Assembly (NCBI GenBank): GCA_965603825.1
Contig: CBFDEM010000003.1
Span: forward strand, 372,001-436,000
Source: Blepharisma stoltei ATCC 30299
Lineage: Eukaryota > Protista > Ciliophora
DNA length: 64,000 nucleotides
Reading direction: 5' to 3'
The notes under the pieces are model-generated. The model worked only from the letters and a program-made list of their open reading frames with translations, did not search any database and was not told where the DNA came from. Each line of letters starts with the position of its first letter. Position 1 is the first letter of the stretch. This document shows positions 37,856-64,000 of the stretch, piece after piece. The position numbers were made by a program, and so were the translations under genes.

Positions 37856-37956
37856 AAATTTTTATATAATGATAATGTGCTAATTAATTTTTTCATTACT
37901 TGCGTTAATATATGATAGCATTATAAAATGGAAATAATTAAACTTTAATGAATAAC

Positions 37957-40031: not shown

Positions 40032-40119
40032 ATAAATGTTTATGCAAAGGATATACAATAATTGCGCTTAATATATGATAGCATTATAAAGTGAAAATAA
40101 TTAAACTTTAATGAATCGC

Positions 40120-41429: not shown

Positions 41430-41889
41430 TTTTTGAGAATATATAAAATTATTATGAAATTATATTTAATTAACTCACAAGTCATGAATTAGTATTTATT
41501 ATCATTCGGAGATTGCTTAATTTTGACCACCGAGTTGTTTTTGCAGCTTCCTCAGGCCTACTTGTAGTTTTCCGATTTATAATTTCGGAATGTTTTCCAA
41601 TGATTAGTTATGGTAGCTCTTCGACAGATCTTTCATTCAAAGTTAATAATTTATTTATAGCACTACTCTTTATATCTCAATTACGGATTAATTATAGGAA
41701 TAGAGTATTGATATTCAGTTCTATAATTTTACAAGTTTATGAAGATTGCGGAAACTGACTTTTTATTTTAGAAAATGCTGCCAATTCAAAGAATTTATAC
41801 AAAATTTAATTAATATATTTAAAGCCTATTAAGTGACCTCTTTAGTCATTTTCAAAGGAAGCATACTTTAAATATTAAAATATGTTAAG

Positions 41890-42067
41890 ATGTCAAATCA
41901 ATAGTTAGAAATAATTTTTTGAAAAATAGCAAAGATAGTTATTGTGTGCTTTGTCTTTTTTCATTGGATTTTCATATGAAATAGCAAATGGAGAAAACTT
42001 CTTAATAGAAATATGTAAAACTCGGAAAATTGAAATAGACTCAAAAGGAAAATCATGACCTGTATAT
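41890..42067 (+). pseudogene. Truncated 5' duplicate of the hidden ORF at 45949-46422
   Basis: 41640-42067 duplicates about 45680-46113, with small indels. Confidence 0.75.
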
Positions 42068-42497
42068 ATTATTTAGCAAATCCAAAAAGATAGCAATAAA
42101 TACCATTAAGTCTTTCAAGAGCTAATGATAAATGTAAACCTAGCTCTGGAGTATCCTATAGAAATTTCAGGCACAGATCAAAGAGTTTTTGGAGTAGCGA
42201 CTCTAATAGAGCAAGACATGCTAATCTAGTTCCACCTCTAAATGTGACCATCCATGATAGTGATTCCTATACTAGGAATTTAACAAAACGTATGCCATAA
42301 CTTAGACTCAGATTCAAAAATTTCTTCAACATCGACTTCACCTTTGGTCATGATCACTATTAAAGCTCTGCCTTCACATACTATAAAATGTTTTTGTTTT
42401 CAAGTATGGCTCTAGAGATTTGGACGATTCAGTTTGATGAAAAAGGTGTTATGGATTTCTTCATAGAGAATGAAAGAGCTATTTATGAAGATTCCAT
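42068..42497 (-). pseudogene. Heavily decayed HIBCH duplicate
   Basis: Colinear with 35605-36149 but with several internal deletions. Confidence 0.85.
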
Positions 42498-42589
42498 AAA
42501 TTTTGATATGCAAATGATAGTAAGATAATTATATATAAAACATGATAGAATATCTAACAAGAAATAATAATTAGACTTTAACGAATCGA

Positions 42590-43849
42590 TTAATTATAAG
42601 TGTTAACTGGTCTTAATTGCTTTGTTGAAAGATTAAATTCCCAGAGCTGATTTTGCAGGAGGATCATATATATGCATCCATTATATTCTATTACATAAGT
42701 TGAAGAATAAGCGCCTGATGGAATATTATTACTACCTATCAAGTTTCATTTATTGATATTGTTCTCCTCACTTTCAAATATATTTCCACTTGTTTGTAGA
42801 ATAAGCGCTTTTTTGCCTCCCTTAAACAGCGTTTTTCTGCTACCTGAAGTTAAATTTAATCCGATAATATCACTATAATTGTTGTTTTTAGGGCTGTATT
42901 TTATCATCTTAGTAAGATAATTTCCTGTCAGTAGTATTTCTTGGTTAAACAAAACTGCTGCAGTTTGATCAAAATTGAGACCAGCTGGAAGAGGAGCACA
43001 GTCTTCTCATGTGTTAGATTTAAGGCAAAATCTTTGTGCCAAATTATTTCGTCCTCCTAATGCATACACAAATCCATCAAAATAAATTGGGTATAAATAA
43101 GGACTCCGCTTTGAATTTGCAACTTGTTTGATATTCTTATTTTTATCTATGATAAATGTGTATGTAGATGTTAATGAATTAGGGTTTGAGTAATAAAAAA
43201 CACTTTTATCTGGTAAGATGCAGCTTGAAATTTGAAAGTGAATATTTTCCATAAGGTCAAGGTTGAATTTAGTTTCTTGAAATGTTTTTAAATTTATTTC
43301 CGATAACTCTTTATTGGATGATCCTTTAAAAAATATATTGTTATTAAAATAGGTACTAATATTCGAAACTAGAGACTCTGTTTTCGATATAAAATCTGGG
43401 AAATATCAATCTTTAGTTTCAATATCAGCAGCAAAAGGCTCCATTTTCAAAACGCTTTCAGGGTCATTTTCTTTGCTCAAATCAAGGATTTCATTAAATT
43501 CAGTCATTAAAACAATTCTTAAAAATTTTTCTTCTAATTTGTCCAAACTTTGTAGCGCCTTTTCTAAGTTATTTTTCACAGCTCCAATAATTTCTTTTGC
43601 GTCTGAAATAACGTTTTTCCTATATTTCTGTAGGCCTTGCCTTAGTTCAGCAATTTTTTTCTGAATCAATATTTTAGTTTCAGCAGCAGGCGTATAATAT
43701 AATCTTAAGCATTGATGTCTTTTATCTCCAACTAAAGTTTGCATATGCTGAGCGGCATGGAGTTGGCAAAATATGGTATAATTCTCGCTGCAATCGCACT
43801 TGCCATATGGCTTACTTGAGCATCCAGACACAAAGCATTTGCTGGCCAT
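42590..43849 (-). CDS. Array copy 4 (419 aa; in-frame linker deletion near 43335)
   Basis: Length 1260 nt; intact with TGA=W. Confidence 0.82.
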
Positions 43850-44142
43850 CTTTTGAGAATCTATAAAATTATTATTATGAAATTTATTTAATTAACTCAC
43901 ATGGCCATGAATTAATATTTATTATCATTCGGAGGTTTTCTTTAATTTTGGCTCTGAGTTGCCTTGCAGCTTCCTCATGCCTGCTATAGTTTTCGCTTTA
44001 TAATTACGGACTGTTTTGCAATAAATTATGATTTTCTATTCGTTAATTAGAATAAATGATTATTTAAAAGATATAAAATAATTATATACAATTCTTAATA
44101 GCATATCTAATTGGAAAGAATAATTAAACTTTAATGAATCAA

Positions 44143-45456
44143 TTAATTATAAGTGTTAACTAGTATTAATTGCTTTGTTGAAAGATTAAATTTCCAGAGC
44201 TGATTTTGCAGGAGGATCATATATATGCATTCATTATATTCTATTACATAAGTTGAAGGATAAGAACCTGATGTAATGCTATTACTACCTATCGAGTTTC
44301 ATTTATTGATATTGTTCTCTTCACTTTCAAATATATTTCCACTTGTTTGTAGAATAAACACTTTTTTGCCTCCCTTAAACAGTATTTTTCTGCTACCTGA
44401 AGTTAAATTTAATCCAATAATATCACTATAATTGTTATTTCTAGGGCTGTATTTTATCATCTTGGTAAGATGATTTCCTGTGAGTAGTATTTCTTCATTA
44501 AACAAAACTGCTGCAGTTTGATCAAAATTGAGACCAGCTGGAAGAGGAGCACAGTCTTCTCATGTGTTAGATTTAAGGCAAAATCTTTGTGCCAAATTAT
44601 TTCGTCCTCCTAATGCATACACAAATCCATCAAAATAAATTGGGTATAAATAAGGACTCCGCTTTGAATTTGCAACTTGTTTGATATTCTTATTTTTATC
44701 TATGATAAATGTGTATGTAGATGTTGATGAAATAGGGTTTGAGTAATAAAAAACACTTTTATCTGGTAAGATGCAACTTGAAATTTGATAGTTAATATTT
44801 TCCATAAGGTCAAGGTTGAATTTAGTTTCTTGAAATGTTTTTAAATTTATTTCCGATAACTCTTTATTATTTCCTTTAAAAAATATATATTTATCATCTT
44901 GTATCGAATTAATATCATGCTTTGGGCGCTGAAAAGGATTTATGTTGGTATTAAAGCAGGTACTAATATTCAAAACTAGAGACTCTGCTTTTGATATAAA
45001 ATCTGGGAAATACCAATCTTCAGTTTTAAATTCAGCATCAAAGGGCTCCATTTTCAAAACGCTTTCAGGGTCAAATTCTTTGCTCAAATCAAGTATTTCA
45101 TTAAATTCAGTCATCAAAGCAATTCTTAAAAATTTTTCTTCTAATTTGTCCAAGCTTTGTAGGGCCTTTTCTAAATTATTTTTCACAGCTCCAATAATTT
45201 CTTTTGCGTCTGAAATAACGTTTTTCCTATATTTCTGTAGGCCTTGCCTTAGTTCAGCAATTTTTTTCTTAATCAATATTTTAGTTTCAGCAGCAGGCGT
45301 ATAATATAATCTTAAGCATTGATGCCTTTTATCTCCAACTAACATTTCCATATGTTGAGCGGCATGGAGTTGGCAAAATATGGTATAATTCTCGCTGCAA
45401 TCGCACTTGCCATATGGCTTACTTGAGCATCCAGACACAAAGCATTTGCTGGCCAT
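44143..45456 (-). CDS. Array copy 5 (437 aa)
   Basis: Intact. TGG at 45013-45015 where copies 1-4 have TGA. Confidence 0.85.
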
Positions 45457-46927: not shown

Positions 46928-49900
46928 ATGAATAAACACCCAGGAATGAAATGCAGAACAGAGTAATTTCTATTAAGTATTGTTCATGAAGCATATTATG
47001 AGCATTTAAAATCAAAGTACACAACAGATTTGGAAGAAGTAACTCAAGAAATCGACACATGGCTTACAAAAAATAATATTTTTTCTCATGAAAGCGCCCA
47101 AAAATCCTTGCCGCTAATGATTTGTGGGAATTCTGGGAGTGGTAAAAGCACATTGATAGCTCAATGGATTGATCTCCATGAAAAATCCCATAAAAGAGAT
47201 AATGATTTTTTGCTCTACCATTTTGTAAAGATCTCGGCAAGTGATAGAGAGTATTATTTTACATTATTTAGGCTTTATAACAAAATTCGAGTAAATTTCT
47301 ATTTAGGAAGCTTATCAAATACCAAAGCGTGTAGGATTGATTGAAGACGATTTGAGGATTTATTTTTCAAGGTGGCTAGAAACAGCCGCAGAAAGAAGGG
47401 CTCTAACGAATTCTGTTAAACAGAATCTGATTTTAGTTATTGACGGAGTTGACAAATATCTTGACCAGCACGGAAGGGAAGAGCCTTCTGATTGGTTGCC
47501 TTGTAACTTGCCAGCTGGAGTTAAAATGATATTTACTTGTAATAATGACAGTAAATCTTACCCATTTCTTGAAAAGAAAGTGAGTTACATCATTGAGCTA
47601 AAGCCTTTAACTTCAGAGCAAAGACTTGATATTTTTAATGAACATCTATTAGGCCGCACAAGAGATGAGACACCAAGGATTTTAGATAAGCTGCAGCAGG
47701 ACATCAAGGCTTATGACTGTTTTGGAAACCCTTTATATTTGAATTTGATGCTAAGCCTCTCTATGCATTGTGTTCATGGAATTGATGATTTTGAATATGA
47801 ATCTCTTGAAAATATGTCGACTCCAGAAAAATTATTTGAATATAGCATCGATTTTTATTCCCAAAGGCATTTTAAAGAAGAAATCATGCTAAGAATTTTT
47901 GGGTTGCTTACAGTCACAAGATCTGGATTAAGTGAAGAAGAGCTAATTAAGCTATCAAACTGTAAACCGCAACAAGTTTCTCGCATTTTAACTATATTCC
48001 ATACCTGTTTGGTCTGTATTTCAGGGTTTTATATATTCAGTAATGAATGCTTTAAAAAAGTTGTCTTAGAAAAACTAGGCACCCTTAGCAGCCTTCATCA
48101 TGAAATTTCTCGTGTACTCGAAGGAAATAAGCTTACAATCAGGAAAACTGATGAACTCTTATACCATTTAGAAGCTAGCAATTCCTGAATGAAATTAAAA
48201 GACCAACTCACAAAGCTTGATGTTTTTACACTTATGATGACCCCTGACTACAAGCTTGATTTATTTAATTACTGAGCACAGCTAGAACAGCAAAGGTTTG
48301 ACCCAGTCCAAGAGTACAATAAAACTATTGAAGAGTTTGTTGCCCAGCATAGTCCTTCCCACCACGATTTACTTATCCTAATGCTTCAGTTTTGTAGGTT
48401 TTTTAAAGAATATAATGATATGGAAGTTCCTTCAGCTTTTAACTTCCGACATCCTCATTTAAAAGGCTATTATGAGCTAAAAGAAATAAATTTACTTGAA
48501 GAAGTTGAAAAGCTGCCTGAAATGTTTTTCTCAACCCAGCAATACCCTCTAAAAGAAGAAGAAAATTTTTCTATTGAAAATAAAATGTCCAGGCTTGCGT
48601 TAAAAGAAATGTGCCTAAAAGCAGCAAAAAAAGAATATTTTAATACTAAACCTCCAAATTTTTATTATTATAAGCGATGACTGTGGATACAGTTTCCATG
48701 GTGCACGCTGGACTCTAATGCAGATTTTTCACAAATTATGAGGAAATTTAATGATGAAAATGAAATGATGAATCCGAAAGCTGAAAATGACTTATCAATA
48801 GAAATGCTGAGCATTTTTAAAAATGCTAATGCAAAAGCTATTAAAAAGTATACACCTGTTACACGATCAGCTTCATCTACTAAAATAGAAATAAGTAAAA
48901 AAAGGCATACAAGAAATGAGTCAAATACACAAATATCAAGGGCTGTAGGAATTTTACCAAAAATAAGGTCACAGATGACGCTAGGCCTGCAAACTCCAGA
49001 ATCAAAAAGTAGAAGCCATTCTGTGTCATCACTTCAGCATAGCTTTACTTCGAATTGTTTTAGTAAAAGTTTTACAGTTAAAGAGTCTTTTGATGTAGAA
49101 TTTAAAGATCTAAGCCCAGATAATGTGCTCGAAAAAATTGGGTCAAGTTTATATGAATATTCTAATGCGCAGGTAAATAATAAAAGAAGAGAAAATTTTG
49201 AAATGAAAAAATTTTATAATAGATTGATAGAAGAAACAAGAATTAAAAAACTTAAATTAATAGGCATCAAAAGCCAGCTTGAAAAAAATGAAGACAACTT
49301 CCGTGAGCAATGCGAAATAAAGCAAAAAATAGACGAGCTTCAAAAACAAATGGAGAGTATATTAGATAAACTTAACAACGCAGAGCTTGACTCCAGAAGG
49401 CTTGAATGTATCATTTCTTGCTGCTTTAAAAATCCTGCAAGAAACGATGAATGGGTCAGAGGACTCGAAAAAGGTATAGAAAATATGAAAGATATGATAA
49501 AATTCGAATTGGGAGAAATTAAAAACTGCAATAAAGAAACAGAGATGCTAGAAGAACAATATTATGCATATAAGGCTACACAAAAAGACAAAGCAATGTA
49601 TCAGCATGATACTATTGAAAGGATTCTCTCACAGTATCAAATAAAAAACAGGATAAATGAAACTTTGTCTAAAGGAGAAAAAAAGAGAAAAGATTTGGTG
49701 ACTAAAATTATGAGTGAACAAAGCAACAGCTATTTTTTTGATAAAATTAAGCAGAGAAATAAATTAAAGGTGACGATATCAGATAAAATGCAGTACTTAA
49801 AAGGGAAATTGGAGCATTATAATCAAGTCATGTCGAAGGTTAGTAAAGTTTTAAATATTTCCCACCCTAGAGAGTTAGGGATGATTCTATTTACTTTTGA

Positions 49901-50444
49901 AAAAAGCAAAGAACTTAAAGAAAGCATAAAAGTTAAAGAAACAAAAATTCAAGAGCTTAAATGCGAAAGAGATTTACTACTCTCCAAACTGCAAATATTT
50001 AGAAAAAAAGAAACAGAAAATGATAAAAATCAGAAAATTGCATATACACTTGATGAATTGCATGACAAAGTAAGGGTAGCTGAGCAGAGATTTGAGCACC
50101 TTCATAAGTTATCTAAACGGCAAGAATATTTATATATATCTTGCTTAGGAAGCTTAGAGCAGCTATGAGGAAGATTTGCGGTAGAAAAAAATTATGATAT
50201 TGACTCAACGAATATAAAGAAGGTTATTTCAACACTAGATAACAGGATTTGTGAAATGAAAAATAAGCTTGGAGACTCTTTCAGGCTGAGAATTAAGTCT
50301 GTAAATGAGTTTCCTATTTCAAAGAGTTCAGAGAGGTCAATTATTGAAAATCATGACGTGCTGGATGTGAAAGAAGTTTCTCATTTTGAGAGAAAAGGGG
50401 AAAGAAAAAATACAAAGCTCTTAAGATATATGAGCATGCAATAA
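46928..50444 (+). CDS. NACHT-like P-loop NTPase (NPHP3/TTC41/TEP1-like) with C-terminal coiled coil
   Basis: Walker A GNSGSGKS, Walker B LILVIDGVD, WLP and GNPLYL motifs. Introns 46963-46977 and 47291-47306; several TGA=W. Confidence 0.8.
46963..46977 (+). other. 15-nt intron GTAATTTCTATTAAG
   Basis: GT-AG ends, A at position 10; links ATG 46928 to ORF 47030. Confidence 0.8.
47291..47306 (+). other. 16-nt intron GTAAATTTCTATTTAG
   Basis: Explains the frame change between ORFs 47030-47344 and 47337-48188; A at position 11. Confidence 0.88.
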
Positions 50445-52040: not shown

Positions 52041-52574
52041 ATGGGTAGTGTAATGGCAACTCATAAGAAAAAGCAAAGAGTATAATATATATAGATAGCA
52101 AAAGCTGTAGAAGCAGTTATTTCTAATGATCCTTACTTTCATTATACGACTGAAGATACTACAATCCTACTTGAAGCAGTAAAAATAAATTAGAATAATT
52201 GGACACTTTTACATTTAGCTGTATGGCTGAATAAGGAAATTGCAATTAAAAAAATTTTGGAATTAAAGCCCAATATTGAGGCTCTAGATTCTAATGGAGA
52301 AACTGCGCTACATTTAGCCGAAATTTCCCAAAATGATGATATATATAAACTATTAAAAGTTGTTGGTGCAAACGATACAATTAAAAGTAAATATGGTAAA
52401 GGAAGCTCTTCGAACGGGAAATTAATTGAGATTGATCTCTGCAATGAACAAGCAAAAAAGATTGAAGTGCCTTCAATGGTAAGTACAGTTAAATCAACTG
52501 TTTCAGCTAAAAATGAAATATTCTTAAGTTCTGAAACAGATGAGCTGAATTTCGAAAAAGTTGAATTTTTATAA
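52041..52574 (+). CDS. Small ankyrin-repeat protein
   Basis: Two 15-nt introns (52080-52094, 52179-52193). WTLLHLAV and GETALHLA ankyrin motifs. Confidence 0.82.
52080..52094 (+). other. 15-nt intron GTATAATATATATAG
   Basis: GT-AG ends, A at position 10; removes TAA. Confidence 0.8.
52179..52193 (+). other. 15-nt intron GTAAAAATAAATTAG
   Basis: GT-AG ends, A at position 10; removes TAG just before the first ankyrin motif. Confidence 0.82.
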
Positions 52575-53083: not shown

Positions 53084-56000
53084 ATGGAAGAACAAAGACT
53101 TCTTGAGTTGGTTGAGAAGATCTTCTCAGGTCCGCCTGATGAACCTCAAACCACCTCTCAAAATCTACAAGCTCTCAATAAAGCTCTTCAAAAAGCCTCA
53201 GAAAGCACTTTACAAGCAGTCAGCGACTTGCTCAGCGATCTCGAAGGTCAAGGAAAAATCCCAATGGATGACGCAGACAAGTTCCATGATTACCTTGATG
53301 AAATCTCAGAAGGGAACAACCCCTCTTTCCCAGTCCTGACCTGCTTAGAAGGCCCAACAGCTCACAAGAAAGCATTAAATGCAGCCAAGCTATTCCACGC
53401 TATGCACAAGATCCACCTCGTCCGTCAATCGATGCTGCACAACTGCTTCACTGAGTTAAACGAGCACAAATGGGAAGTCAGAACAAGTGATATGAAAATC
53501 CTTCACGAACTTGAAGTAAAAAGGCTTAATTGTTCCCGTTTAGTTGCCCAGCTTAAAGGAGCTTTAGGAATGAACATGGAAAGGACCATTAGGCTTTGGC
53601 ATGGAAATGCTTTTACCCAGGACTCAGTCATTGAAGTAGACTCTTATGAAGAAAACTATACAACGACAAGGCATAAAAGGACTTTAAGTGAGTACGAAAA
53701 AAGGCAGAAAATTCACAATGCGATTACAGGATTTATTGGAAAAGGCTCAGTGTGTTTTGAACAGCTCGGATTTTGGAGATGGAGACTTAAAGTTCAAGAA
53801 ATCTTGGAAAATGAAGGAAGGGTTAAGGATGGTCTTGATGTCTGTGACGCGTTCTTCAGAAGACTTAATTCAAAGAAGGCAATGAAAAACTGGAAGTTTA
53901 TGCTTAAGCCGAGATGGGAGACGAAAAAGGATTTATTAGAAGAAATTATGAGAAGGGCAGAACTTAGACTGTTTTACGTTAAGAAACTTGCAGCTGAAAA
54001 ACTGAAGACAGCAGAAAAGCCTAAGGAAGAAGATGAGGAATTCGTGGAGTTAGTAGACAATCTTACAGCTAAAACAAAGCACATCAGCAATGTGCCGAAG
54101 AAGGAAAGAGCTCAAGCTGTGAGGGCAGCCAAAGTAAATATGCCAAATTCTAAGAAAAAATTAGGAGACATAGTCAAACATCTTCGTGAGGTCAGCGAAA
54201 ATAAAAAAAAACTGAAAGAAGTCGCTATTTCTTATTGGAAAACCAAAGCTCTAGACAAGCAAAAAGATAAAACTGATGATGCAACCAAAAATCTCGCTGC
54301 CACAGTAGTCAAGGAAATTCTTCAAAAGCAGCCTCGAGACAGCTTAAGAAAATGGAGAGACCTTATAATTGGTCCAAGCGACAAACAGTCTTCAGTTTTC
54401 AAAAACCTCGCAATGAACGCTATTAATATGAAAATTGCTCCAAAAATTGCCTTGCTCAAATGGAAGCTCGCTAAAACTCACAAATCAATTGGAGAATTCG
54501 CAGATAATGAAGATAAAACAGTTGAAAAATATAAGAAGTCTTTACTCCGCAGCGTATTTAAATCAAATAGAGCACTTAAGGACAGCTTACATCTATGGAA
54601 TACCAATGCTAAAGCAGAAGGCAGCAGCCAAACACAAGACAAAGTTACTCATATGATCAATGTCCTTAAGAAAATACTTAACCATAAATTAAATAAGTGC
54701 TTTAAAGAGCCAGCAGAACAGAAAACTAAAGAAGAAGTATTAGGAGAAGCTTTAATTAAAATATATAAGAACATCCATTATGTTCTAGGAAAAGCCTTTA
54801 ACAGATGGGCAAGATTCGTGCCAGATCAACCACGTCCTGAAGACAAAGAAAAAATAATGAAACTCGCTCTCATCAACATGTCAAAAGTCCCAAGAGAAGC
54901 CTTGCTTCGTGCATTCTACGTATGGAAAGGCCTTCTCCCACCCCCACAAGAAGAAGCCAAAACCCCAGCCTCTCGTACAAAAACTAACCCTGCCGCAGGC
55001 AAAAAAATTCCAAAAGATGGTCAAGCCCCAGAAGATGAAGACGAGCCAAGTGGAAAAAGACTTGCTTCTAGAGATCCTAAGACCATAACCAAAATTCCTG
55101 AAGGAAACGAACAAAACGCCAAAATTTTCTGTTTCCTTACAACATTGCAAAGAATTATTGCAGTGAAAACCAGAAAAGTCCTCAAGCCAATTTATATCGT
55201 AAAAGACGCTGATGCAATCCTTAGAGGCTATCTTAAGAAACTTCAGCTAGTTAGAAAGGGCTTATTAGAGACTGCAGTATTCAGATGGAAATATGCAGGT
55301 CTTGCTAAGAGATTTAGAGAAAAGGCAGGAGCTTTGTTTAGAGCTATTCAGCTTTCTACTGATCCTAGAAAAGACGCAATTAGTATATGGGGAGAAAAGA
55401 CCCGTGCAGCAAAATTAATAAAGCAGGTAAGGGCTGCTGAAAAACTTGGATCCACACTTAATAGAAGTGCAAGAGACAACTTGAGAAAAGGCTTAGACAC
55501 TATTAAGTCCAAGAAAAGCCTTAAGGATATATTAAATAGGGTTTGGAATCAGGTGAATAAGAAATATTTCTCTGATGAACATTCCTATTTCTTGAGATGG
55601 GCTATGGCAGTGAACTCAGAAAGAATCAGAGTTGCCCAATTAGAAAAAGATAAAGCTATTGGAGGAATCGTTCACTATTGGTCTGTTAACTATAAACTTA
55701 GGGTAAGACGTGGATTTAATGCTTTTTGCAAGAACTCAAAGCCGCTTAAGCTAAGATTTATTAGAGCTCTTGAGAAAGGACTAAGAGGTAAAGTCGGCCA
55801 TGCTTTTGACACATTGAAACTTAATGTTACAGGCTCACAAAAGCACGAATTGCCAGCACTAAAATTGGCAAATGCACTTAGACATCCTGTGAGACATTCA
55901 TTGAGAGATGGTTTCCAAAGAATCATTGGACTCAACATGAATATTGTGAAACCTTATATGAACAGCTTAATTAAAGGACTTGAACAAGATATGAAAGACG

Positions 56001-59000
56001 CCTTAAGGCTATGGAAAGACAATATCAATAAAGATAAAGTCGACAAACTCAAAGGCAAGAAAAATGCTATCAAAAAAGACTTGAAGAAAGAAGCTGTCAG
56101 AAGCGGCAAAGCAAGAGCTGTCAGCTTAGAAAAAACCATCCTCAAAGGAGTCATCCATAACAGACTTAACCAAGCCTTCAAAACAATTACTAGAGACCCA
56201 TACTCAAAGGTAAAACAGCCATTGGAAAACTTGAAAACTCAAATAGAGAAAATTCCTAGAGACGCTCTTAAGAAATGGAAAGATTTCGTCAATTCTGTCA
56301 AATCTGGAGAGCTACTTGATAACCTCAAAGCTATCAAGCTAAATAACCTTTTGCAAGCAATCCCTATCAGAACTTTGAGAAATGCTTATATGAGAATTAT
56401 CGGAGGAGGTAATAAGCTTGCAGGAGTCCTCAAAGCATTAGAGCTCAGAGTCCAAAATAAGCCCAGAGATGCGCTTAACAAGCTAAAAGAGCACGCTTTG
56501 AAATGCAAGAATGGAGAACTTCTTGACAACTTAAAAGCAGAAAAACTGAAAAATGCCTTAGCAAGAATCCCATCAAGGACTTTGAAAGATGCTAGCCAAA
56601 GAATCAAAGGAGACCCTAATAGCGTTAAAGCTACCTTAATTGACCTTGCCAAAATGGTTGAAAAAGCTCCAAGAGATGCCCTCAAAAAATGGAAAGACTA
56701 TCTCAAAGAAACAGAAAAAGACAAACTTAATAACGATCTTCATGGACAAAAACTCTTAAATACCTTAAATAAAATCCCTACTAGAACTTTGAGAGATGCC
56801 ACAAAAAGAATTAAAGGGGACGGAAATCCTATTGCAACAACTCTTAATGAGCTTGAGAAAAAAGCAATTAAAAGACCAAGAGAGGCATTGAGAAGATGGA
56901 AAGAACAAGTAGCATTGGATAAAATCAAAGCCATTCATGATGATAATCTTATCAAGCTTGCCCTTAAAGATTCAGTTAAATGTGTTAACGATGCTCTACG
57001 CAAAGCTTTATATAGATGGAAAGACCATACTTCAGGCATAGAACATGTAGAAAAGAAAGCTTTGAGTAATTTAGAAAATGTCAAACTGTTTGGAATGATC
57101 ACAACTTTACAAAGAATTGTTGCTCAAAAGACAAGGAAGTCGCTTAAACCTATTGTAATTGTTAAAGATGCTGATGCGATCCTTAGAAGATATCTTAGAA
57201 AACTGCATTTAGTTAAGAATCAACTGATGTCAACTGCCATTTTCAGATGGAAATACGCAGGACTTGCAAAGGTTTTCAGAGAAAGAGCTGGACAACTATT
57301 CACAGCAATCCTTCACTCAACTGATCCAAGACAAGATGCAGTCAATATTTGGGCTGAAAAAGTAAGGACAGCAAAACTAGTAAAGAAAATCAGAGCAGCC
57401 GACAAATTAAGTGCTGCTTTGAAGAAATGCTCACTAGATAGAATTAATCCAGCTTATAAAGACATCACAAGAGATCCACTTGAAAGGGTTAAACAGCCAC
57501 TGAGTAACTTAAAAGATGTTATTGAAAAAAGACCTAGAGACGCTGTCAGAAGATGGAAAAATTACGTCGATGATGTAAAGAAGGGCGCAATCCTTGATGC
57601 TCTTAAAGCAGCAAAGCTAAAAGATGCTCTTAATAAAGTCCCAACTAGAACTTTAAGAGACGCAACCCGAAGAATTAAAGGAGACGGCAACCCAATTGCA
57701 GCAATTCTAGATGATCTTGAGAAAAAAGCTATTAAAAGACCACGTGATGCGCTCAGAAGATGGAAGGACAGAGTCAATGAAGATAAATTCAAAGCAATCA
57801 GAGATACCCATCTCATTAAGCTCGCTTTGAAAGACTCAGTGAAATGCATAAATCTCATCCTTCGCAGATCTATAAATAGATGGAGATTGGCTATTCATGA
57901 TATTCAGCACACTGAAAAGAAAGCTTTAACAAATATAGAGAACGTAAAGTTATTCTGTATGATCACAACTTTACAAAGAATTGTTGCTCAAAAGACTCGA
58001 AGGTCACTGAAACCAATAGTTATTGTAAAAGATGCTGATGCGATACTTAGAAGATATCTTAGAAAACTGCATTTAGTTAAGAATCAACTGATGTCAACAG
58101 CTCTTTTCAGATGGAAATACGCAGGAATTGCACAAGGCTTCAGAGAAAAAGCTGGAAAACTATTCACAGCAATCCTACACTCAACTGATCCAAGAAGGGA
58201 TGCAATCAATATTTGGGCTGAAAAAGTAAGGACAGCAAAACTGGTAAAGAAAATCAGAGCAGCTGACAAATTAAGCACCACTCTCAAGACTTGTGGAAAC
58301 AACAAACTAAGACCTAGCTATGAAGCCATTGTTTCTCAGCATCAACTCAAAGAAAAACTCGACAAAAATGCTTTAAAGAATAGCAAACTAGCTAATGCTT
58401 TACTTAATCCCGCTCGCTCACGACTTCAAGCTGCATACAAAAGAATCATTGGCACCAAGTTCGACATGAAGCCATACCTGACCAACTTAGTCAAAGGCTT
58501 AGAAAACGACATGAAAGATGCTTTGCACTTATGGAAAGACAACATAAATAAAGATAAAGTCAAAAAACTCCAAGGCGAGAAAAAAGCTATCAAGAAGAAT
58601 CTTAAGCGTGAAGCCGTCAGAAGTGGTAAAGCCAGAGCTTCAAATCTAGAAAAAGCTATACTGAAAGGACCAATCCAAAACAGACTTGCTCAAGCATTCA
58701 AAGACATTGTCAGAGACCCATTAGAAAAGGTCAAACAGCCATTGAATAACTTGAAAGATGCACTGGAAAAGAAACCAAGAGATGCAGTAAGGATGTGGAA
58801 GAACTTTGTTGATGCAGTCAAAAAAGGAGAAATATTGGACCAAGTCAAAGCTACCAAATTGCAGAATGCACTTGAAAAAGTACCAATCAGGACTGAAAAA
58901 GACGCTTTGGCAAGAATTGTAGGTGGAGGAGATAAAGTTGCAGGAGCTCTTAGAGCATTAATCGACAATGCAAAGAAAGTACCTCGTGACGCACTTAGAA

Positions 59001-62000
59001 AACTCAAAGACCATGCAAGCAATTGCAAGAATGGCAAGATACTTGATAACCTCAAAGCTGCTAAACTTAAAAATGCCCTTGATAAAGTTCCTGTTAGAAC
59101 AGAAAAAGATGCATTAGTCAGATTGGTCGGAGGAGGAGATAAAGTTGCTGGAGTTCTTAGAGGATTGATCGACAACGCTAAAAAAGTACCTCGCGATGCA
59201 CTTAGAAAGCTTAAGGATCACGCAAACAAATGCAAGAATGGGCAAGTCCTTGATAACTTAAAATCTGCTAAGCTCGCGAACTTACTTGCAAAGATACCAA
59301 TTAGGACTGAAAAAGATGCTTTTGCCAGAATAATTGGTGGAGGTGACAAAGTTTCAGGAGTCCTCAGACAGCTCATAGACAACGCTAAGAAAGTACCTCG
59401 TGACGCACTTAAAAAACTCAGAGACCATGCAAACAAATGCAAGAATGGTCAAGTCCTTGACAACCTCAAATCCGCTAAGCTCACAAATGCACTTGCTAAA
59501 GTCCCAATTAGGACTGAAAAAGATGCATTGTCAAGAATCATTGGTGGCGGAAATAAAGTAGCAGGAGCTTTGAAAGGACTGATCCACAACGCTAAGAACT
59601 TACCACGTGACGCTTTCCAAAAACTCAAAGATAACGTAGCTAAATGCAAGAACGGTGAAACACTAGACAACCTTAAAGCCGCCAAACTTAAGAACGCACT
59701 TGCTAAAGTCCCAGTCAGGACTGAAAAAGATGCTTTGGCAAGAATTGTCGGTGGAGGTGACAAAGTCGCAGGAGCTCTCAAAGGATTGATTCACAATGCC
59801 AAGAATTTACCACGTGACGCTTTCCAAAAACTCAAAGATAATGTCACCAAATGCAAGAATGGCGAAACTCTTGACAACCTTAAAGCTGCAAAACTAAAGG
59901 ATGCCCTTGCTAAAGTTCCAATCAGGACTGAAAAAGATGCTTTGGCAAGAATAATCGGTGGAGGAGACAAAGTAGCAGGCGCTCTTAAAGGATTAATCCA
60001 CAACGCTAAAAATTTGCCACGTGACGCTTTCCAAAAACTAAAGGATAATGTTGCTAAATGCAAGAGCGGAAAAGTGCTTGATAATCTCAAGTCAGCAAAA
60101 CTGAAAAATGCCCTTGATAAGATTCCTATCAGAACTGAAAAAGACGCTTTTTCAAGAATTATTGGAGGAGGCAATAAAGTGAATGGAGCACTTAAATCAC
60201 TTATAAACAAGGCTGAAAGACTTCCACGTGATGCATTCCAAAAACTTAAGGATAATGTCACAAAATGCAAGAATGGAGAAATACTTGACAGTCTAAATGC
60301 ACAAAAGCTTAAAAATGTTCTAGCAAAATTACCTCTAAGGACCTTAAAAGATGCTCATGCAAGAATAATAGGAAGCGGAAACAAGGTGGCTGGTGCCCTT
60401 AAAGCCCTCATGCTTAGAGCCCAAAAAGTTCCACGTGATGCTTTGCAGAAACTCAAAGAGAACGCCCTTAAAGCTAAAAATGGAGAAGTACTTGATCATG
60501 CTAAAGCTCAAAAGCTCAGAATTGCCTTAGCTAAAATTCCAAGCAGAACACTTAGAGATGCTTACAAATCAATAGTAAAAGATGACTCACGTGTGAAAGC
60601 TGCTCTTAGAGCTTTAGGTCACTTATATGTAAGAATGCCTTCTGAAGCCTTACGTTTGTGGAGACTCGGTGCAGAAAGAACAAAAACTAATGAGCAAGCA
60701 GCAAAAGTAGCAGACACTGAAAAGAAGCTGAAAGGAGTCTTAATCAAAAATGCTCTTGAGAAGCCAGTTAGACGCCAAGTTAGATCAGCCAGAGAAAAAG
60801 CCCAGGTTACTGACAGAGTTAAGAACATCATTAAACTATTTATGCTCAGAGTTGCTGCAAGACCTAGAAACGCCTTTAATAGGTGGCTTCAAAATTCTAT
60901 CAGGAAAGAAACTAATGATGTAGCTGGAAAAATCAGAGCTGAGAAATTGAGATATATATTGGATTTGATACCTTTAAGAGCTATGAGACCTGCTTTCAAT
61001 GAAATTGCGAAAAGAGGTAGACCTGCTGTGAGAGATCCATTGAAGAATGTAGCAAAAGCATTTGCAAGAAGACCAAGACAAGCTCTTTATAAGTGGAAGA
61101 CATTTTTGCATTTAGTGAAAAATGACCAACTCTTAGACGCTGTAAAGGCTCAAAAGTTAAGAAATGCACTCGAGAGGATTCCGATAAGAACGATTAAGGA
61201 GAATTATGACTATATTTTGCAAAGACATGGAACGAAGGCTTTAGGAATATTGAGATTGTTGTTCAAACATTATCAAGAAATGCCTAGTGAAGCAATGAAG
61301 AAGTGGAAAGACTTTGTTAACAATTGCAAGCAAGGAGATCTTCTTAACGCTGTAAACGCTCAGAAACTTAAACTTGCCTTAGAAAGAATTCCTGTAAGAA
61401 CTATCAGAGACGCTCAACAAAGAATCTTAGGAGATGGTGACAAATTCGCCGGAAATGTCAGAAGAATCCTTATCCAGCTTCAAAAGAAACCGAGAGTTGC
61501 CTTCAACATCTGGAAACAGTACATTCAAGATTGTAAGACAAGAAACTTATTCGACAATGTCAGATGCCAGAAATTAAAGAACGCTTTGGAACGAATTCCT
61601 AAGAGAACACTCAAAGACGCAACTCAAAGAATCATTGGAGGAGGTGATAAAGTTAAAGGAGCAATCAAGAATGTAATGAATGCAATGATAAGGAAACCAA
61701 GAGACGCTCTTCAGAAGTGGAAAGACTACATTAAAGATTGCCAGACAAAGAAAGCTGTAAACGCTCTCAAAGCTAACAAACTTAAGAATTGCTTAGAGAA
61801 GGTTATTCCAAGAACTCTCAGAGACGCTCATAACCGAATTGTTGGCCAAGGAAGCAAGATATTAGGAGCTCTTCGCAGAATGGAAATTCAGCTCAAGAAT
61901 AAGCCACGAAACGCATTCAATAAATGGAAACTCTATCTTCAAGCTTGTAAAGAAAAAGGACTCCTCGACAATGTAAGAAGCCAAAAATTAGTTAACATTG

Positions 62001-64000
62001 CACTTGCCATTCCTCGAAGAACTTTAAGAGACACTTATCAAAGAATAGTTGGTGAAGGTGATAAAGTTTTAGGTGCCCTAAAGAAACTTGACGTAGCCTT
62101 AAAGAGATCTCCTAAGCAAGCCTTTGACAAATGGGCTAGGTTCGCTAAAGACTGTGGTACAAAGAGCATGCTCGACAACCTAAGAACTCAAAAGCTTCAG
62201 AACGCTCTAGAAAAGATTCCTAAACGAACTATGAAGGATGCAGCTGATAGAATTCTTGGAAACGGAAATAGACTTAAAGGTGCTCTTCGCAGACTTTTCA
62301 TCCAATTGCAAAAGAAGCCAAAAGAAGCATTTGATAAATGGAGAGGCTTTATGGATTCTTGCAAGAAGAACTCTTTATTAGATGCTCTTAAAGCGAAGAA
62401 ATTACAAGACTCCTTAAACAAGATCCCTCAAAGAACTCTCAGAGATGCAAATAATAGAATCATCGGTCAAGGAAGCAAAACTGCTGGAGCTCTCAGAAGA
62501 CTTGAAATTACTTTGAAAAAATCAGCTAGAGGCGCTTTCAATAAATGGGCAAACTTCTGTAAGGACTGCAAAGACAAGAAAATAATTGACAACTTAAGGA
62601 CTCAACAATTGAAGAATGCCTTGATAAATGTACCAAAACGAACACTTAAAGATGCTACAGATCGTATCAAAGGACAAGGTGATAAAGTCAAAGGAGCTAT
62701 AAGGACAGCCATTGGCGCACTAAAGCGAGTTCCTAGAGATGCATTGCAAAAGTGGAAGGACTTCGTAGATGATATTAAGAATAAGAAAACCTCTGACGCT
62801 TTGAATGCTAAGAAATTGCAGACTGCACTTGAAAAAGTACCGATAAGAACTCTTAGAGATGCTCATAGTCGAATTATTGGTGAAGGAGATAAAATAGCTG
62901 GAGCTATTAGAAGACTTGATATTAATCTTAAGAAAAAGCCAAAGCAAGCATTTGATAAATGGAAAAACTATCTCAGAGCGGTTAAAGACAAGAAAATAGC
63001 AGACAATCTCAAGACACAGCAGCTTAAAAATGCACTTAAGAATATTCCTAAACGAACTTTGAAAGATGCAGCACAAAGAATCAAAGGAGATGGAGATAAG
63101 GTTAAAGGAGTACTTAGAGCAGCATTTGCAATTCTTAGGAAAGCACCAAAGCAAGCATTTGATAAATGGCAAGACTTCGTCCAAGGAACCAAACAGAAGA
63201 AATCATTAAATGCTTTGAATGCTGAAAAACTGAAAAATGGATTAAGAAAGATCCCTGCTAGGACATTGAGAGAAGCTTATAACCAAATTGTTCCTGATAA
63301 TAAGAATGAGCTTCAAGCAGAAAAACTTAGAAAAGCACTTGATAAGATCCCATTACGCACTTTGAGATCTGCATTTAATCCTATTATTCTTGACAACTCT
63401 GATAAGATCAAGTCTGCATTGAGAAATCTTGCTGTTTTGTACTATCAAAGACCTAGAGACTGTTTGAATAAATGGAAACTTGGATGTGAAAAGAAGAAGA
63501 CTGCTGATTCCAACAAGAAACTCAAGGGAGCCATGCTTAAGAACGCTCTTGAAAAACCAGTCCGAAAGCAAGTAAGATCAGGAAGAGACAGATGCCAGCC
63601 AAGCGATAAGGTCAAGAAGACTCTACAAGTTTTCGCACTTCGAGTTGAAAAGATGCCTAGAGATGCTCTTAACAAATGGAAAGCTTTCTTAAACCTTGAG
63701 AAGAACGACAACCTCTCAGATGCAGTAAGAGCTCAAAAACTAAGATATGCACTTGACAGAATACCGATTAGGACTCTGAAAAATAATTATGACTTTATTT
63801 TGCAAAGACATGGAACCAGAGCTTTAGGAATATTGAGATTGTTGTTCAAACATTATCAAGAAATGCCTAGTGAAGCCATGAAGAAGTGGAAAGACTTTGT
63901 TAACAATTGCAAGCAAGGAGACTTACTTAACGCAGTAAACGCTCAGAAACTTAAGCTTGCCTTAGAAAGAATTCCTGTAAGGACCATCAAAGACGCGCAT
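53084..64000 (+). CDS. Giant Sfi1-like repeat protein (putative centrin/spasmin-binding), more than 3639 aa, continuing past the window
   Basis: Stop-free frame from ATG 53084 (MEEQRLLELV) to 64000 (...IPVRTIKDAH); absent from the ORF track because it has no stop. Recurrent (A)L/F-x2-W-K/R motifs; 69-aa repeats. Confidence 0.85.
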   Translation, partial: MEEQRLLELVEKIFSGPPDEPQTTSQNLQALNKALQKASESTLQAVSDLLSDLEGQGKIPMDDADKFHDYLDEISEGNNPSFPVLTCLEGPTAHKKALNAAKLFHAMHKIHLVRQSMLHNCFTELNEHKWEVRTSDMKILHELEVKRLNCSRLVAQLKGALGMNMERTIRLWHGNAFTQDSVIEVDSYEENYTTTRHKRTLSEYEKRQKIHNAITGFIGKGSVCFEQLGFWRWRLKVQEILENEGRVKDGLDVCDAFFRRLNSKKAMKNWKFMLKPRWETKKDLLEEIMRRAELRLFYVKKLAAEKLKTAEKPKEEDEEFVELVDNLTAKTKHISNVPKKERAQAVRAAKVNMPNSKKKLGDIVKHLREVSENKKKLKEVAISYWKTKALDKQKDKTDDATKNLAATVVKEILQKQPRDSLRKWRDLIIGPSDKQSSVFKNLAMNAINMKIAPKIALLKWKLAKTHKSIGEFADNEDKTVEKYKKSLLRSVFKSNRALKDSLHLWNTNAKAEGSSQTQDKVTHMINVLKKILNHKLNKCFKEPAEQKTKEEVLGEALIKIYKNIHYVLGKAFNRWARFVPDQPRPEDKEKIMKLALINMSKVPREALLRAFYVWKGLLPPPQEEAKTPASRTKTNPAAGKKIPKDGQAPEDEDEPSGKRLASRDPKTITKIPEGNEQNAKIFCFLTTLQRIIAVKTRKVLKPIYIVKDADAILRGYLKKLQLVRKGLLETAVFRWKYAGLAKRFREKAGALFRAIQLSTDPRKDAISIWGEKTRAAKLIKQVRAAEKLGSTLNRSARDNLRKGLDTIKSKKSLKDILNRVWNQVNKKYFSDEHSYFLRWAMAVNSERIRVAQLEKDKAIGGIVHYWSVNYKLRVRRGFNAFCKNSKPLKLRFIRALEKGLRGKVGHAFDTLKLNVTGSQKHELPALKLANALRHPVRHSLRDGFQRIIGLNMNIVKPYMNSLIKGLEQDMKDALRLWKDNINKDKVDKLKGKKNAIKKDLKKEAVRSGKARAVSLEKTILKGVIHNRLNQAFKTITRDPYSKVKQPLENLKTQIEKIPRDALKKWKDFVNSVKSGELLDNLKAIKLNNLLQAIPIRTLRNAYMRIIGGGNKLAGVLKALELRVQNKPRDALNKLKEHALKCKNGELLDNLKAEKLKNALARIPSRTLKDASQRIKGDPNSVKATLIDLAKMVEKAPRDALKKWKDYLKETEKDKLNNDLHGQKLLNTLNKIPTRTLRDATKRIKGDGNPIATTLNELEKKAIKRPREALRRWKEQVALDKIKAIHDDNLIKLALKDSVKCVNDALRKALYRWKDHTSGIEHVEKKALSNLENVKLFGMITTLQRIVAQKTRKSLKPIVIVKDADAILRRYLRKLHLVKNQLMSTAIFRWKYAGLAKVFRERAGQLFTAILHSTDPRQDAVNIWAEKVRTAKLVKKIRAADKLSAALKKCSLDRINPAYKDITRDPLERVKQPLSNLKDVIEKRPRDAVRRWKNYVDDVKKGAILDALKAAKLKDALNKVPTRTLRDATRRIKGDGNPIAAILDDLEKKAIKRPRDALRRWKDRVNEDKFKAIRDTHLIKLALKDSVKCINLILRRSINRWRLAIHDIQHTEKKALTNIENVKLFCMITTLQRIVAQKTRRSLKPIVIVKDADAILRRYLRKLHLVKNQLMSTALFRWKYAGIAQGFREKAGKLFTAILHSTDPRRDAINIWAEKVRTAKLVKKIRAADKLSTTLKTCGNNKLRPSYEAIVSQHQLKEKLDKNALKNSKLANALLNPARSRLQAAYKRIIGTKFDMKPYLTNLVKGLENDMKDALHLWKDNINKDKVKKLQGEKKAIKKNLKREAVRSGKARASNLEKAILKGPIQNRLAQAFKDIVRDPLEKVKQPLNNLKDALEKKPRDAVRMWKNFVDAVKKGEILDQVKATKLQNALEKVPIRTEKDALARIVGGGDKVAGALRALIDNAKKVPRDALRKLKDHASNCKNGKILDNLKAAKLKNALDKVPVRTEKDALVRLVGGGDKVAGVLRGLIDNAKKVPRDALRKLKDHANKCKNGQVLDNLKSAKLANLLAKIPIRTEKDAFARIIGGGDKVSGVLRQLIDNAKKVPRDALKKLRDHANKCKNGQVLDNLKSAKLTNALAKVPIRTEKDALSRIIGGGNKVAGALKGLIHNAKNLPRDAFQKLKDNVAKCKNGETLDNLKAAKLKNALAKVPVRTEKDALARIVGGGDKVAGALKGLIHNAKNLPRDAFQKLKDNVTKCKNGETLDNLKAAKLKDALAKVPIRTEKDALARIIGGGDKVAGALKGLIHNAKNLPRDAFQKLKDNVAKCKSGKVLDNLKSAKLKNALDKIPIRTEKDAFSRIIGGGNKVNGALKSLINKAERLPRDAFQKLKDNVTKCKNGEILDSLNAQKLKNVLAKLPLRTLKDAHARIIGSGNKVAGALKALMLRAQKVPRDALQKLKENALKAKNGEVLDHAKAQKLRIALAKIPSRTLRDAYKSIVKDDSRVKAALRALGHLYVRMPSEALRLWRLGAERTKTNEQAAKVADTEKKLKGVLIKNALEKPVRRQVRSAREKAQVTDRVKNIIKLFMLRVAARPRNAFNRWLQNSIRKETNDVAGKIRAEKLRYILDLIPLRAMRPAFNEIAKRGRPAVRDPLKNVAKAFARRPRQALYKWKTFLHLVKNDQLLDAVKAQKLRNALERIPIRTIKENYDYILQRHGTKALGILRLLFKHYQEMPSEAMKKWKDFVNNCKQGDLLNAVNAQKLKLALERIPVRTIRDAQQRILGDGDKFAGNVRRILIQLQKKPRVAFNIWKQYIQDCKTRNLFDNVRCQKLKNALERIPKRTLKDATQRIIGGGDKVKGAIKNVMNAMIRKPRDALQKWKDYIKDCQTKKAVNALKANKLKNCLEKVIPRTLRDAHNRIVGQGSKILGALRRMEIQLKNKPRNAFNKWKLYLQACKEKGLLDNVRSQKLVNIALAIPRRTLRDTYQRIVGEGDKVLGALKKLDVALKRSPKQAFDKWARFAKDCGTKSMLDNLRTQKLQNALEKIPKRTMKDAADRILGNGNRLKGALRRLFIQLQKKPKEAFDKWRGFMDSCKKNSLLDALKAKKLQDSLNKIPQRTLRDANNRIIGQGSKTAGALRRLEITLKKSARGAFNKWANFCKDCKDKKIIDNLRTQQLKNALINVPKRTLKDATDRIKGQGDKVKGAIRTAIGALKRVPRDALQKWKDFVDDIKNKKTSDALNAKKLQTALEKVPIRTLRDAHSRIIGEGDKIAGAIRRLDINLKKKPKQAFDKWKNYLRAVKDKKIADNLKTQQLKNALKNIPKRTLKDAAQRIKGDGDKVKGVLRAAFAILRKAPKQAFDKWQDFVQGTKQKKSLNALNAEKLKNGLRKIPARTLREAYNQIVPDNKNELQAEKLRKALDKIPLRTLRSAFNPIILDNSDKIKSALRNLAVLYYQRPRDCLNKWKLGCEKKKTADSNKKLKGAMLKNALEKPVRKQVRSGRDRCQPSDKVKKTLQVFALRVEKMPRDALNKWKAFLNLEKNDNLSDAVRAQKLRYALDRIPIRTLKNNYDFILQRHGTRALGILRLLFKHYQEMPSEAMKKWKDFVNNCKQGDLLNAVNAQKLKLALERIPVRTIKDAH
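58775..63300 (+). repeat. Tandem 207-bp (69-aa) coding repeats
   Basis: Trp codons at 61304, 61511, 61718 through 63167 are spaced exactly 207 nt apart, as are PRDA starts at 58982 through 60431. Confidence 0.92.

What the first reader, a model, noticed from the sequence alone, without database searches (positions are those of the whole stretch)
53084..64000. Giant Sfi1-like protein missed by the ORF track, with 69-aa (3x23) repeats
Seen: more than 10.9 kb of stop-free frame with no intron detected, made of helical repeats such as PRDALQKWKDF..D.K.....DNL...KLKNAL..IP.RTLKDA..RIIG.GDKV.GAL. Known: Sfi1 repeats bind centrin through F/L-x2-W-K/R motifs (23-aa period in human Sfi1), and giant Sfi1-like proteins form the Ca2+-driven myonemes of contractile heterotrichs such as Spirostomum. 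Inference: a myoneme-type scaffold in a Blepharisma-like ciliate not noted for ultrafast contraction. The regular Pro and Gly-Gly residues may act as hinges.
Basis: partly seen in the sequence, partly recalled or inferred. Interest (0 to 1): 0.78.

Follow-up and report, generated by a model that had tools for sequence, protein, structure and literature searches.

The report
Giant centrin scaffold with tryptophan-less block
This is the front part of a very long gene of the ciliate Blepharisma whose 69-residue repeats match the known centrin-binding scaffolds behind calcium-driven contraction in Stentor and Spirostomum; it likely binds centrin too, likely runs on to at least 8,600 residues, and holds eight repeats in a row that lack the tryptophan thought to anchor centrin.

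Summary
The ORF is real: ATG at 53084, 3,639 codons, still open at 64000, with a 69-residue period. It was missed only because it runs off the window edge. The window lies on a Blepharisma stoltei contig (UGA=Trp, 15-nt intron). The repeats belong to the published heterotrich GSBP/Sfi1-like family: homology to Stentor SteCoe_17904 (Sfi1-1), the Spirostomum GSBP consensus, and Pro every 36/33 residues. The '3x23' subdivision is not supported, and the canonical yeast/human Sfi1 consensus is absent. Family, Pro/Gly-hinge idea and Blepharisma homologs are already in print. Two things are not in the papers I read. (1) Eight consecutive repeats (aa 1953-2504) carry Leu instead of the diagnostic Trp, with a co-varying His/Asn; the longest non-Trp run in 47 homologs is 1, and the array is also present in a second, about 93% identical organism. 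Centrin binding and function are inferred from homologs, not tested. Verdict: a new variant of a known kind; interest 0.42.

The parts
53084..64000 (+). 5' 3,639 codons of a giant GSBP/Sfi1-like gene, open at the window end (414 kDa so far); all 47 Trp codons are TGG
53084..53608 (+). Conserved N-terminal domain (aa 1-175): predicted four short helices (aa 2-75) then a long helix (aa 95-160); shared with Stentor SteCoe_3113 and SteCoe_10583 and unnamed homologs; no Pfam or clear fold match
53609..56212 (+). Irregular head (aa 176-1043) with scattered F/L-x2-W motifs and no 69-aa period
56213..58939 (+). Mixed zone (aa 1044-1952): isolated 69-aa units (Trp-type at 1044, 1182, 1470, 1884; Leu-type at 1113) and a duplicated 155-aa module (aa 1289-1443 and 1577-1731, 83% identical)
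58940..60595 (+). Trp-less block: eight consecutive 69-aa units (aa 1953-2504) with Leu (CTC/CTT/CTA) at the Trp position and His/Asn three residues later; 207-nt tandem array at DNA level (58865-60546, about 76% matches)
   Evidence: array also in organism B
61241..63310 (+). Trp block: ten consecutive canonical 69-aa units (aa 2720-3409), Trp every 69 residues
63320..63823 (+). Linker between higher-order repeat blocks; aa 3425-3624 is 95-98% identical to three copies in CAG9311042.1
63824..64000 (+). Start of the next higher-order block (aa 3580-3635 identical to aa 2719-2774); cut by the window edge

Best explanation
The ORF is the N-terminal part of a giant Blepharisma stoltei member of the heterotrich GSBP/Sfi1-like family, a 69-residue-repeat protein that likely serves as the backbone of calcium-responsive centrin filaments in the cell cortex. 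Shown: gene, organism, repeat anatomy, homology, two repeat classes. Inferred from Spirostomum and Stentor homologs: each Trp-type unit (P-x3-[LF]-x2-W-[KR]) docks about one centrin on a helix that kinks at the two prolines and the Gly-x-Gly; Ca2+ on centrin compacts the chain and makes filaments self-associate, which shortens or stiffens the cortical mesh without ATP. Inferred and untested: the eight Leu-type units bind centrin more weakly or bind another centrin paralog, giving a 550-residue segment with different compliance between the head and the Trp blocks. Inferred (about 0.8): the frame continues into the annotated model CAG9311042.1, which supplies the conserved C-terminal domain, for a chain of at least 8,591 aa (about 1 MDa).
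For: All 13 hits of the first search (1,927 candidates scored) have a 69-aa period; named ones are B. stoltei CAG9311042.1 and Stentor SteCoe_17904, 8740 and 3113. SteCoe_17904 is Sfi1-1, whose RNAi cut the share of contracting cells from 87% to 24%. Window units match the printed GSBP consensus at 9.0 of 18 positions on average (25 units) against 8.2 for SteCoe_17904 (32 units) and 2.0 background. Three Spirostomum 69-mers co-purify with about 4 centrins and compact with Ca2+. Organism: 10 of 12 window ORFs looked up are exact NCBI proteins on a 769,471-bp contig, the length also given for CAG9311042.1; 6 of them need TGA=Trp; a 15-nt intron is spliced at 52179, as described for B. stoltei. 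One-gene reading: the window has the N-domain and no C-domain, CAG9311042.1 the reverse and starts inside a repeat; 15 homologs carry both; the linker is 95-98% identical across the two, against 94-97.5% among the copies within CAG9311042.1 and at most 36% to any other protein held; its CDS is 14,859 nt and the previous Met at both equivalent sites lies 96 aa upstream, which fits a 15-kb exon cap (recalled AUGUSTUS default; the annotation used intronless AUGUSTUS). Leu block: longest non-Trp run is 8 here and at most 1 in 47 other proteins (747 of 758 units Trp); Leu co-occurs with His/Asn in 9 of 9 window units against 0 of 16 Trp units, and in 7 of 7 against 13 of 556 units outside Blepharisma; Leu codons are CTN, two or more changes from TGG.
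Against: No binding, localisation or knock-down data exist for this protein. S. minus GSBP1/2 sequences were not among my hits, so the link to them rests on the printed consensus and spacing. The canonical yeast consensus occurs 0 times and Pro replaces the first Leu of the L-x3-L-x2-W triad in 24 of 25 units. Stentor Sfi1-3 knock-down hardly affects contraction, and Sfi1-2 co-localises only partly with centrin, so family membership does not fix the role. The DNA between the window end and CAG9311042.1 was not seen, their order on the contig is unknown, no bridging protein came up among 19 hits, and the N- and C-domain trees cannot tie the two halves together. The 15-kb cap could not be found in print, and the protein collection may itself stop near 5,000 aa. 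Leu-type units of different species are not each other's nearest neighbours, and 3 of the 7 outside units are identical copies in one protein. 65% of 47-aa stretches of the Trp block lack Met anyway, so the Met argument is weak alone.
Confidence: 0.72

Rival explanations
1. It is a centrin scaffold of the same family but a static or patterning one (oral primordium, cortical mesh), with no part in Ca2+-driven change of cell length.
For: Stentor Sfi1 paralogs are regionalised and needed for oral regeneration; Sfi1-3 knock-down barely changes contraction. Blepharisma is not known for millisecond contraction (recalled). About a third of the clean units in the window lack the Trp (9 of 25).
Against: The only heterotrich 69-mers tested in vitro compact with Ca2+; one paper lists Blepharisma as myoneme-contractile; CAG9311042.1 is almost all Trp-type (53 of 55 units).
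Confidence: 0.2
2. The window ORF and CAG9311042.1 are two neighbouring paralogs homogenised by gene conversion; the window gene ends soon after 64000 and is of ordinary Stentor size (4,000-5,000 aa). This competes on size only.
For: No sequence bridges the two; heterotrichs have many paralogs (at least 15 in Stentor); Trp blocks are only 83-86% identical across the two.
Against: Complementary N- and C-domains, mid-repeat start, 95-98% linker identity, similar 82-94% spread among blocks inside CAG9311042.1; no protein close to the first 1,000 aa among 43 hits in 1.84 billion representatives (best score 31% identity), as expected if a stop-less 5' part was never annotated.
Confidence: 0.2
3. 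Each 69-mer is three 23-aa Sfi1 sites binding three centrins (first reader; also raised for GSBP in PMC9946354).
For: 69 = 3 x 23 arithmetically; raised as a possibility.
Against: No identity or profile signal at lags 23 or 46; Pro spacing 36/33; measured stoichiometry about 4 centrins per 3 units; human repeats are 33-mers.
Confidence: 0.04
4. It is an unrelated basic helical cytoskeletal protein and the W-K/R motif is coincidental.
For: No Pfam Sfi1 hit, no match to solved Sfi1 chains by sequence (11 weak hits, best E 0.026), no atlas hit at 0.9 or above.
Against: The published Stentor Sfi1-1 also gets no Pfam Sfi1 hit, so that test cannot discriminate; direct homology to it is E about 0 over 81% of the query.
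Confidence: 0.03

Closest known systems
Stentor coeruleus Sfi1-1 (SteCoe_17904) and paralogs SteCoe_3113, 8740, 10583 (Yan et al., 10.1101/2025.08.11.669701)
   Same: 69-aa units with one W-K/R site, KGAL-type start, Pro and Gly kinks; 31% identity over 81% of the query; N-domain shared with SteCoe_3113 and 10583.
   Different: Stentor units are nearly all Trp-type (36 of 36 in SteCoe_17904); lengths 2,057-3,739 aa for those found, against at least 3,639 and likely 8,600 here.
Spirostomum minus GSBP1 and GSBP2 (Zhang et al., PMC9946354)
   Same: Trp every 69 residues, consensus match 9 of 18 positions, no introns, internal higher-order duplications.
   Different: 13,125 and 17,974 aa; Trp described as uniformly distributed, with no Trp-less array mentioned in the sections read; sequences not compared directly.
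Spirostomum ambiguum Sfi1 69-mers (Lannan et al., 10.1101/2024.11.07.622534)
   Same: Two prolines dividing the unit into 36 and 33 residues, helix breaks at Pro and Gly.
   Different: A conserved Trp is reported in every repeat there; here eight in a row lack it.
Blepharisma stoltei CAG9311042.1 (4,952 aa, unnamed)
   Different: Starts inside a repeat, has the C-domain and no N-domain; likely the 3' part of this same gene.
Yeast Sfi1p and human Sfi1 (Kilmartin, PMC2173958)
   Same: F/L-x2-W-K/R core in helical repeats (22 matches in the window).
   Different: Spacing 23-35 aa (33-mers in human), almost no Pro, A-x7-LL-x3 consensus absent here; spindle-pole role.

Membership tests
Heterotrich GSBP/Sfi1-like scaffolds | Tandem 69-aa units with Trp every 69 residues | tested here: met
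   Period 69; ten consecutive Trp units at aa 2720-3409. Not met in the eight units at aa 1953-2504, which keep the period but have Leu.
Heterotrich GSBP/Sfi1-like scaffolds | 23-residue GSBP consensus around the Trp site | tested here: met
   Mean 9.0 of 18 specified positions in 25 units; 8.2 in SteCoe_17904; background 2.0.
Heterotrich GSBP/Sfi1-like scaffolds | Two prolines per unit at 36/33 spacing, plus glycines | tested here: met
   P15 and P51 in 96% of units; 30 of 36 Pro intervals are 36 or 33.
Heterotrich GSBP/Sfi1-like scaffolds | Sequence homology to an experimentally studied member | tested here: met
   SteCoe_17904 (Sfi1-1): 2,263 bits, 31% identity, 81% coverage.
Heterotrich GSBP/Sfi1-like scaffolds | Intronless giant gene | tested here: inconclusive
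   No intron seen in the parts covered by probable RNA contigs or by pattern scan; the 3' end lies outside the window.
Heterotrich GSBP/Sfi1-like scaffolds | Direct alignment to S. minus GSBP1/2 | not tested
   They lie outside the length ranges searched; the paper's supplement could not be read.
Heterotrich GSBP/Sfi1-like scaffolds | Binds centrin/spasmin and localises to the cortical mesh or myoneme | not testable with these tools
   Shown only for Spirostomum and Stentor homologs.
Canonical Sfi1 (yeast, human) | Consensus A-x7-LL-x3-F/L-x2-W-K/R | tested here: not met
   0 matches; also 0 in SteCoe_17904.
Canonical Sfi1 (yeast, human) | L8-x3-L4-x2-W1 hydrophobic triad | tested here: not met
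   Position 8 is Pro in 24 of 25 units; positions 4 and 1 fit in Trp-type units.
Canonical Sfi1 (yeast, human) | 23-35 aa spacing, very low proline | tested here: not met
   69-aa spacing, 2.0 Pro per unit.
Canonical Sfi1 (yeast, human) | Pfam Sfi1 profile hit | tested here: inconclusive
   No hit, but none for the published Stentor Sfi1-1 either.
Paramecium CenBP (infraciliary lattice) | Homology to PtCenBP1 repeats | not tested
   No named Paramecium protein among the hits; similarity of Spirostomum 69-mers to CenBP is stated.

The most novel reading that the evidence does not exclude
Blepharisma, a ciliate without millisecond contraction, builds a megadalton (at least 8,600 aa) GSBP-scale scaffold whose gene model is cut short in the public annotation, and the chain is modular like titin: centrin-loaded Trp blocks that compact with Ca2+ in series with a conserved 550-residue Trp-less block that binds centrin weakly or selects another centrin and acts as a spring or damper. 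Repeat class, not chain length, would then set contraction speed, and the Leu block is a natural test of whether the Trp is needed for centrin binding.
Probability: 0.3. Interest if true: 0.68.

Novelty: new variant of a known kind. Interest (0 to 1): 0.42.

Why it matters
The GSBP paper explains Spirostomum's speed by longer scaffolds (13,000-18,000 aa against 1,000-4,600 aa in Stentor) and asks whether the Trp is needed for spasmin binding. A Blepharisma protein of likely 8,600 aa or more tests the first idea, since Stentor contracts in tens of milliseconds with shorter proteins. The eight-unit Leu block offers a ready native construct for the second question, in an assay already set up for 69-mers. 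It also suggests that intronless AUGUSTUS annotations of heterotrichs truncate these giant genes, so published length comparisons may be too low.

Tried and rejected
No whole genome is held for this window, so the frame could not be extended. A search for shorter proteins bridging the window end and CAG9311042.1 gave 19 hits, none from B. stoltei; a search of 1,611-4,600 aa proteins gave 21 hits, none named B. stoltei. Pfam hits on the repeats are scattered and nearly all below cut-off (PF04872 passes on one fragment by summed score) and were treated as noise. The PDB sequence search and the ESM Atlas (best 0.88, low recognition) were uninformative. The four-unit structure model had pLDDT 43: all helix with breaks near Pro and Gly, but too weak to use and not fold-searched. 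The N-domain model (pLDDT 77) found no Foldseek match at E<=0.001 and only generic helix matches at Z<=7.2; the bundle alone was not searched, so no new fold is claimed. N- and C-domain trees did not resolve orthology (near-duplicates and short fragments left out). No run is on record as RNA; X8 and X10 are taken as probable RNA because they splice the 15-nt intron and skip the intergenic stretch. Leu-type units as one ancient clade: not supported by nearest neighbours. 3x23: rejected. Earlier findings of this scan: three look-ups, nothing. Print searches: Blepharisma + Sfi1 gave 3 papers, GSBP/giant spasmin 2 relevant among 20 listed of 72; none of the sections read describes this gene, its length or a Trp-less array. 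Figures, tables and supplements of the two preprints and the SI PDFs of PMC9946354 and PMC9942806 could not be seen, so I cannot tell which Blepharisma sequences are in the published tree.

Full report
Observation. A + strand frame is free of all three standard stops from 53042 to the end of the window. The first ATG is at 53084, giving 3,639 codons with no stop in sight; homologs start at the equivalent Met. Chance of such a frame is about 1e-92. The ORF lister omits it by default because it runs off the edge (0 ORFs, listed), which explains 'missed by the ORF track'. The protein is basic (K 15%, R 8%) with a 69-residue period: identity 0.263 at lag 69 against 0.078 expected, but 0.058 and 0.061 at lags 23 and 46. 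A profile of 25 gap-free units is anti-correlated at lag 23 (z -2.1) and weakly positive at 33/36 (z +2.1, not significant over all lags); 30 of 36 Pro intervals are 36 or 33. So the unit is not 3x23. The first 1,000 aa have no such period; 31 unit matches lie in the rest.

Organism and expression. Ten of 12 window ORFs looked up are exact NCBI proteins, six only when TGA is read as Trp, all with a longest contig of 769,471 bp, the same figure as for the named B. stoltei protein CAG9311042.1. B. stoltei has UGA=Trp and 15-16-nt introns (PMC9942806, passages). Two runs that are probably RNA delete a 15-nt GT..AG intron at 52179 in the upstream gene, leave the intergenic stretch uncovered, and cover most of 53097-56900 and 58640-59058 without an intron-sized gap. 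A strict pattern scan found no tiny-intron candidate among 67 GT..AG 15/16-mers in the ORF. A second organism holds the gene at about 93% identity without gaps over 53258-56900; in 58640-59060, 14 changed codons are synonymous and 10 are not (from the 26 listed differences).

Family. The first search scored 1,927 candidates and returned 13 proteins, all with a 69-aa period; the named ones are CAG9311042.1 and Stentor SteCoe_17904, 8740 and 3113. SteCoe_17904 is Sfi1-1 of Yan et al. (10.1101/2025.08.11.669701; abstract, section 6 part 1, sections 9 and 12, passages), whose tree already includes Blepharisma homologs. Zhang et al. (PMC9946354; sections 7 and 10, passages) describe intronless GSBP1/2 with Trp every 69 residues; window units match their consensus at 9.0 of 18 positions, SteCoe_17904 at 8.2, background 2.0. 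Lannan et al. (10.1101/2024.11.07.622534; sections 9, 10, 24) report the 36+33 division, Pro/Gly kinks, about 4 centrins per 3 units and Ca2+-dependent compaction, and name Blepharisma as myoneme-contractile. Canonical Sfi1 features fail: no A-x7-LL-x3-F/L-x2-W match, Pro in place of the first triad Leu in 24 of 25 units, 69-aa spacing (PMC2173958 and PMC3871271, passages). Pfam gives no Sfi1 hit, but none for SteCoe_17904 either. It is therefore a member of the heterotrich GSBP/Sfi1-like family and only works like canonical Sfi1.

The Trp-less block. Eight consecutive units (aa 1953-2504, nt 58940-60595) and one isolated unit (aa 1113) have Leu at the Trp position, coded by CTC, CTT or CTA, with His or Asn three residues later where Trp units have Phe or Tyr (9 of 9 against 0 of 16). 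In 47 other proteins (near-duplicates included, one without units) 747 of 758 units have Trp and no two non-Trp units are adjacent. Outside Blepharisma the same Leu plus His/Asn pairing holds in 7 of 7 Leu units against 13 of 556 Trp units; three of the seven are identical copies, and Leu units are not each other's nearest neighbours, so the pairing may have arisen repeatedly. In the second organism a contig carries at least four copies at 207-nt spacing and no difference is listed at the first Leu codon. Trp anchors the centrin-binding triad in other Sfi1 proteins, though single Leu substitutions occur in human Sfi1. Weaker or different centrin binding is thus an inference.

Likely full length. 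The window protein has the family's N-domain and no C-domain; CAG9311042.1 has the C-domain, no N-domain and starts inside a repeat; 15 homologs carry both. Both share one higher-order layout of Trp block plus linker, with the linker 95-98% identical between them, 94-97.5% among the copies inside CAG9311042.1, and at most 36% to anything else held. Nothing close to the first 1,000 aa is among 43 hits in 1.84 billion representatives. The annotation used intronless AUGUSTUS (10.1101/2021.12.14.471607, passages). The CAG9311042.1 CDS is 14,859 nt, and at both equivalent sites the previous Met is 96 aa upstream, past 15,000 nt. A 15-kb exon limit in AUGUSTUS is recalled and was not found in print. 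I put the one-gene reading at about 0.8, giving at least 8,591 aa. Against it: the joining DNA was not seen, no bridging protein was found, trees do not help, and the collection may stop near 5,000 aa.

Structure. The N-terminal 230 aa model (pLDDT 77) shows four short helices and a 65-residue helix, with no clear fold match. The four-unit model is low-confidence (pLDDT 43) and is not used as evidence.

Mechanism and verdict. Most likely (0.72) the chain is the backbone of cortical centrin filaments: Trp units dock centrin, Ca2+ compacts the kinked helix and bundles filaments, and the Leu block is a differently loaded segment. The binding, compaction and cellular role are all inferred from homologs. 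The main rival (0.2) is a static patterning scaffold, as Stentor paralogs differ in their effect on contraction. That Blepharisma lacks millisecond contraction is recalled; I saw only a reference title on light-evoked elongation (PMC10288572). New variant of a known kind, interest 0.42.

Noticed in passing
window 53084-64000: All 47 Trp codons of the giant ORF are TGG, against 45 TGA of 119 in 22 other long ORFs of the window; 0 of 18 in the non-repetitive first 1,000 aa (p 7e-4; 0.003 with five paralogs collapsed). Blepharisma is reported to have a near-cognate 4-bp-stem tRNA-Trp and an eRF1 that may weakly stop at UGA (10.1101/2023.10.09.561518, passages), so a giant gene may be selected to avoid UGA; high expression is an alternative cause.
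   Followed up: partly
window 52179-52193: 15-nt GT..AG intron in the ankyrin-repeat gene upstream, spliced in two probable RNA runs.
   Followed up: yes
window 36255-45456 (minus strand): Tandem array of five paralogs with an N-terminal Cys/His-rich motif, a predicted helical stretch and C-terminal Kelch-like repeats; the copy at 40488-41429 ends early (313 aa against 419-438).
   Followed up: no
window 14552-20113: 1,853-aa protein with many RCC1 repeats, a central region recalled as RasGAP/IQGAP-like (not tested) and a Cys-rich motif near aa 1530-1580.
   Followed up: no
window 3-4208 (minus strand): ORF of more than 1,400 aa, open at the window start, with a P-loop (GSTGCGKST) and a later DTPG motif, GTPase-like by eye, and no Pfam hit at E 1e-4.
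   Followed up: no
window 13103-14410: Archaeal-type 2,3-bisphosphoglycerate-independent phosphoglycerate mutase (PF10143 plus PF01676).
   Followed up: no
window 46967-50444: Nephrocystin-3-like gene (NPHP3_N and TPR_NPHP3 weak hits) in two frames, probably split by tiny introns.
   Followed up: no
P0022, P0009, P0023, P0071: The homologs whose C-domains group with CAG9311042.1 mostly start inside a repeat, so they too may be 3' fragments of longer genes, including Stentor SteCoe_8740.
   Followed up: partly
window 58733-60181: Seven successive units (aa 1884-2366) also carry Glu in place of the conserved Leu of the second half-repeat (R-T-L becomes R-T-E), starting one unit before the Trp-less block.
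   Followed up: no
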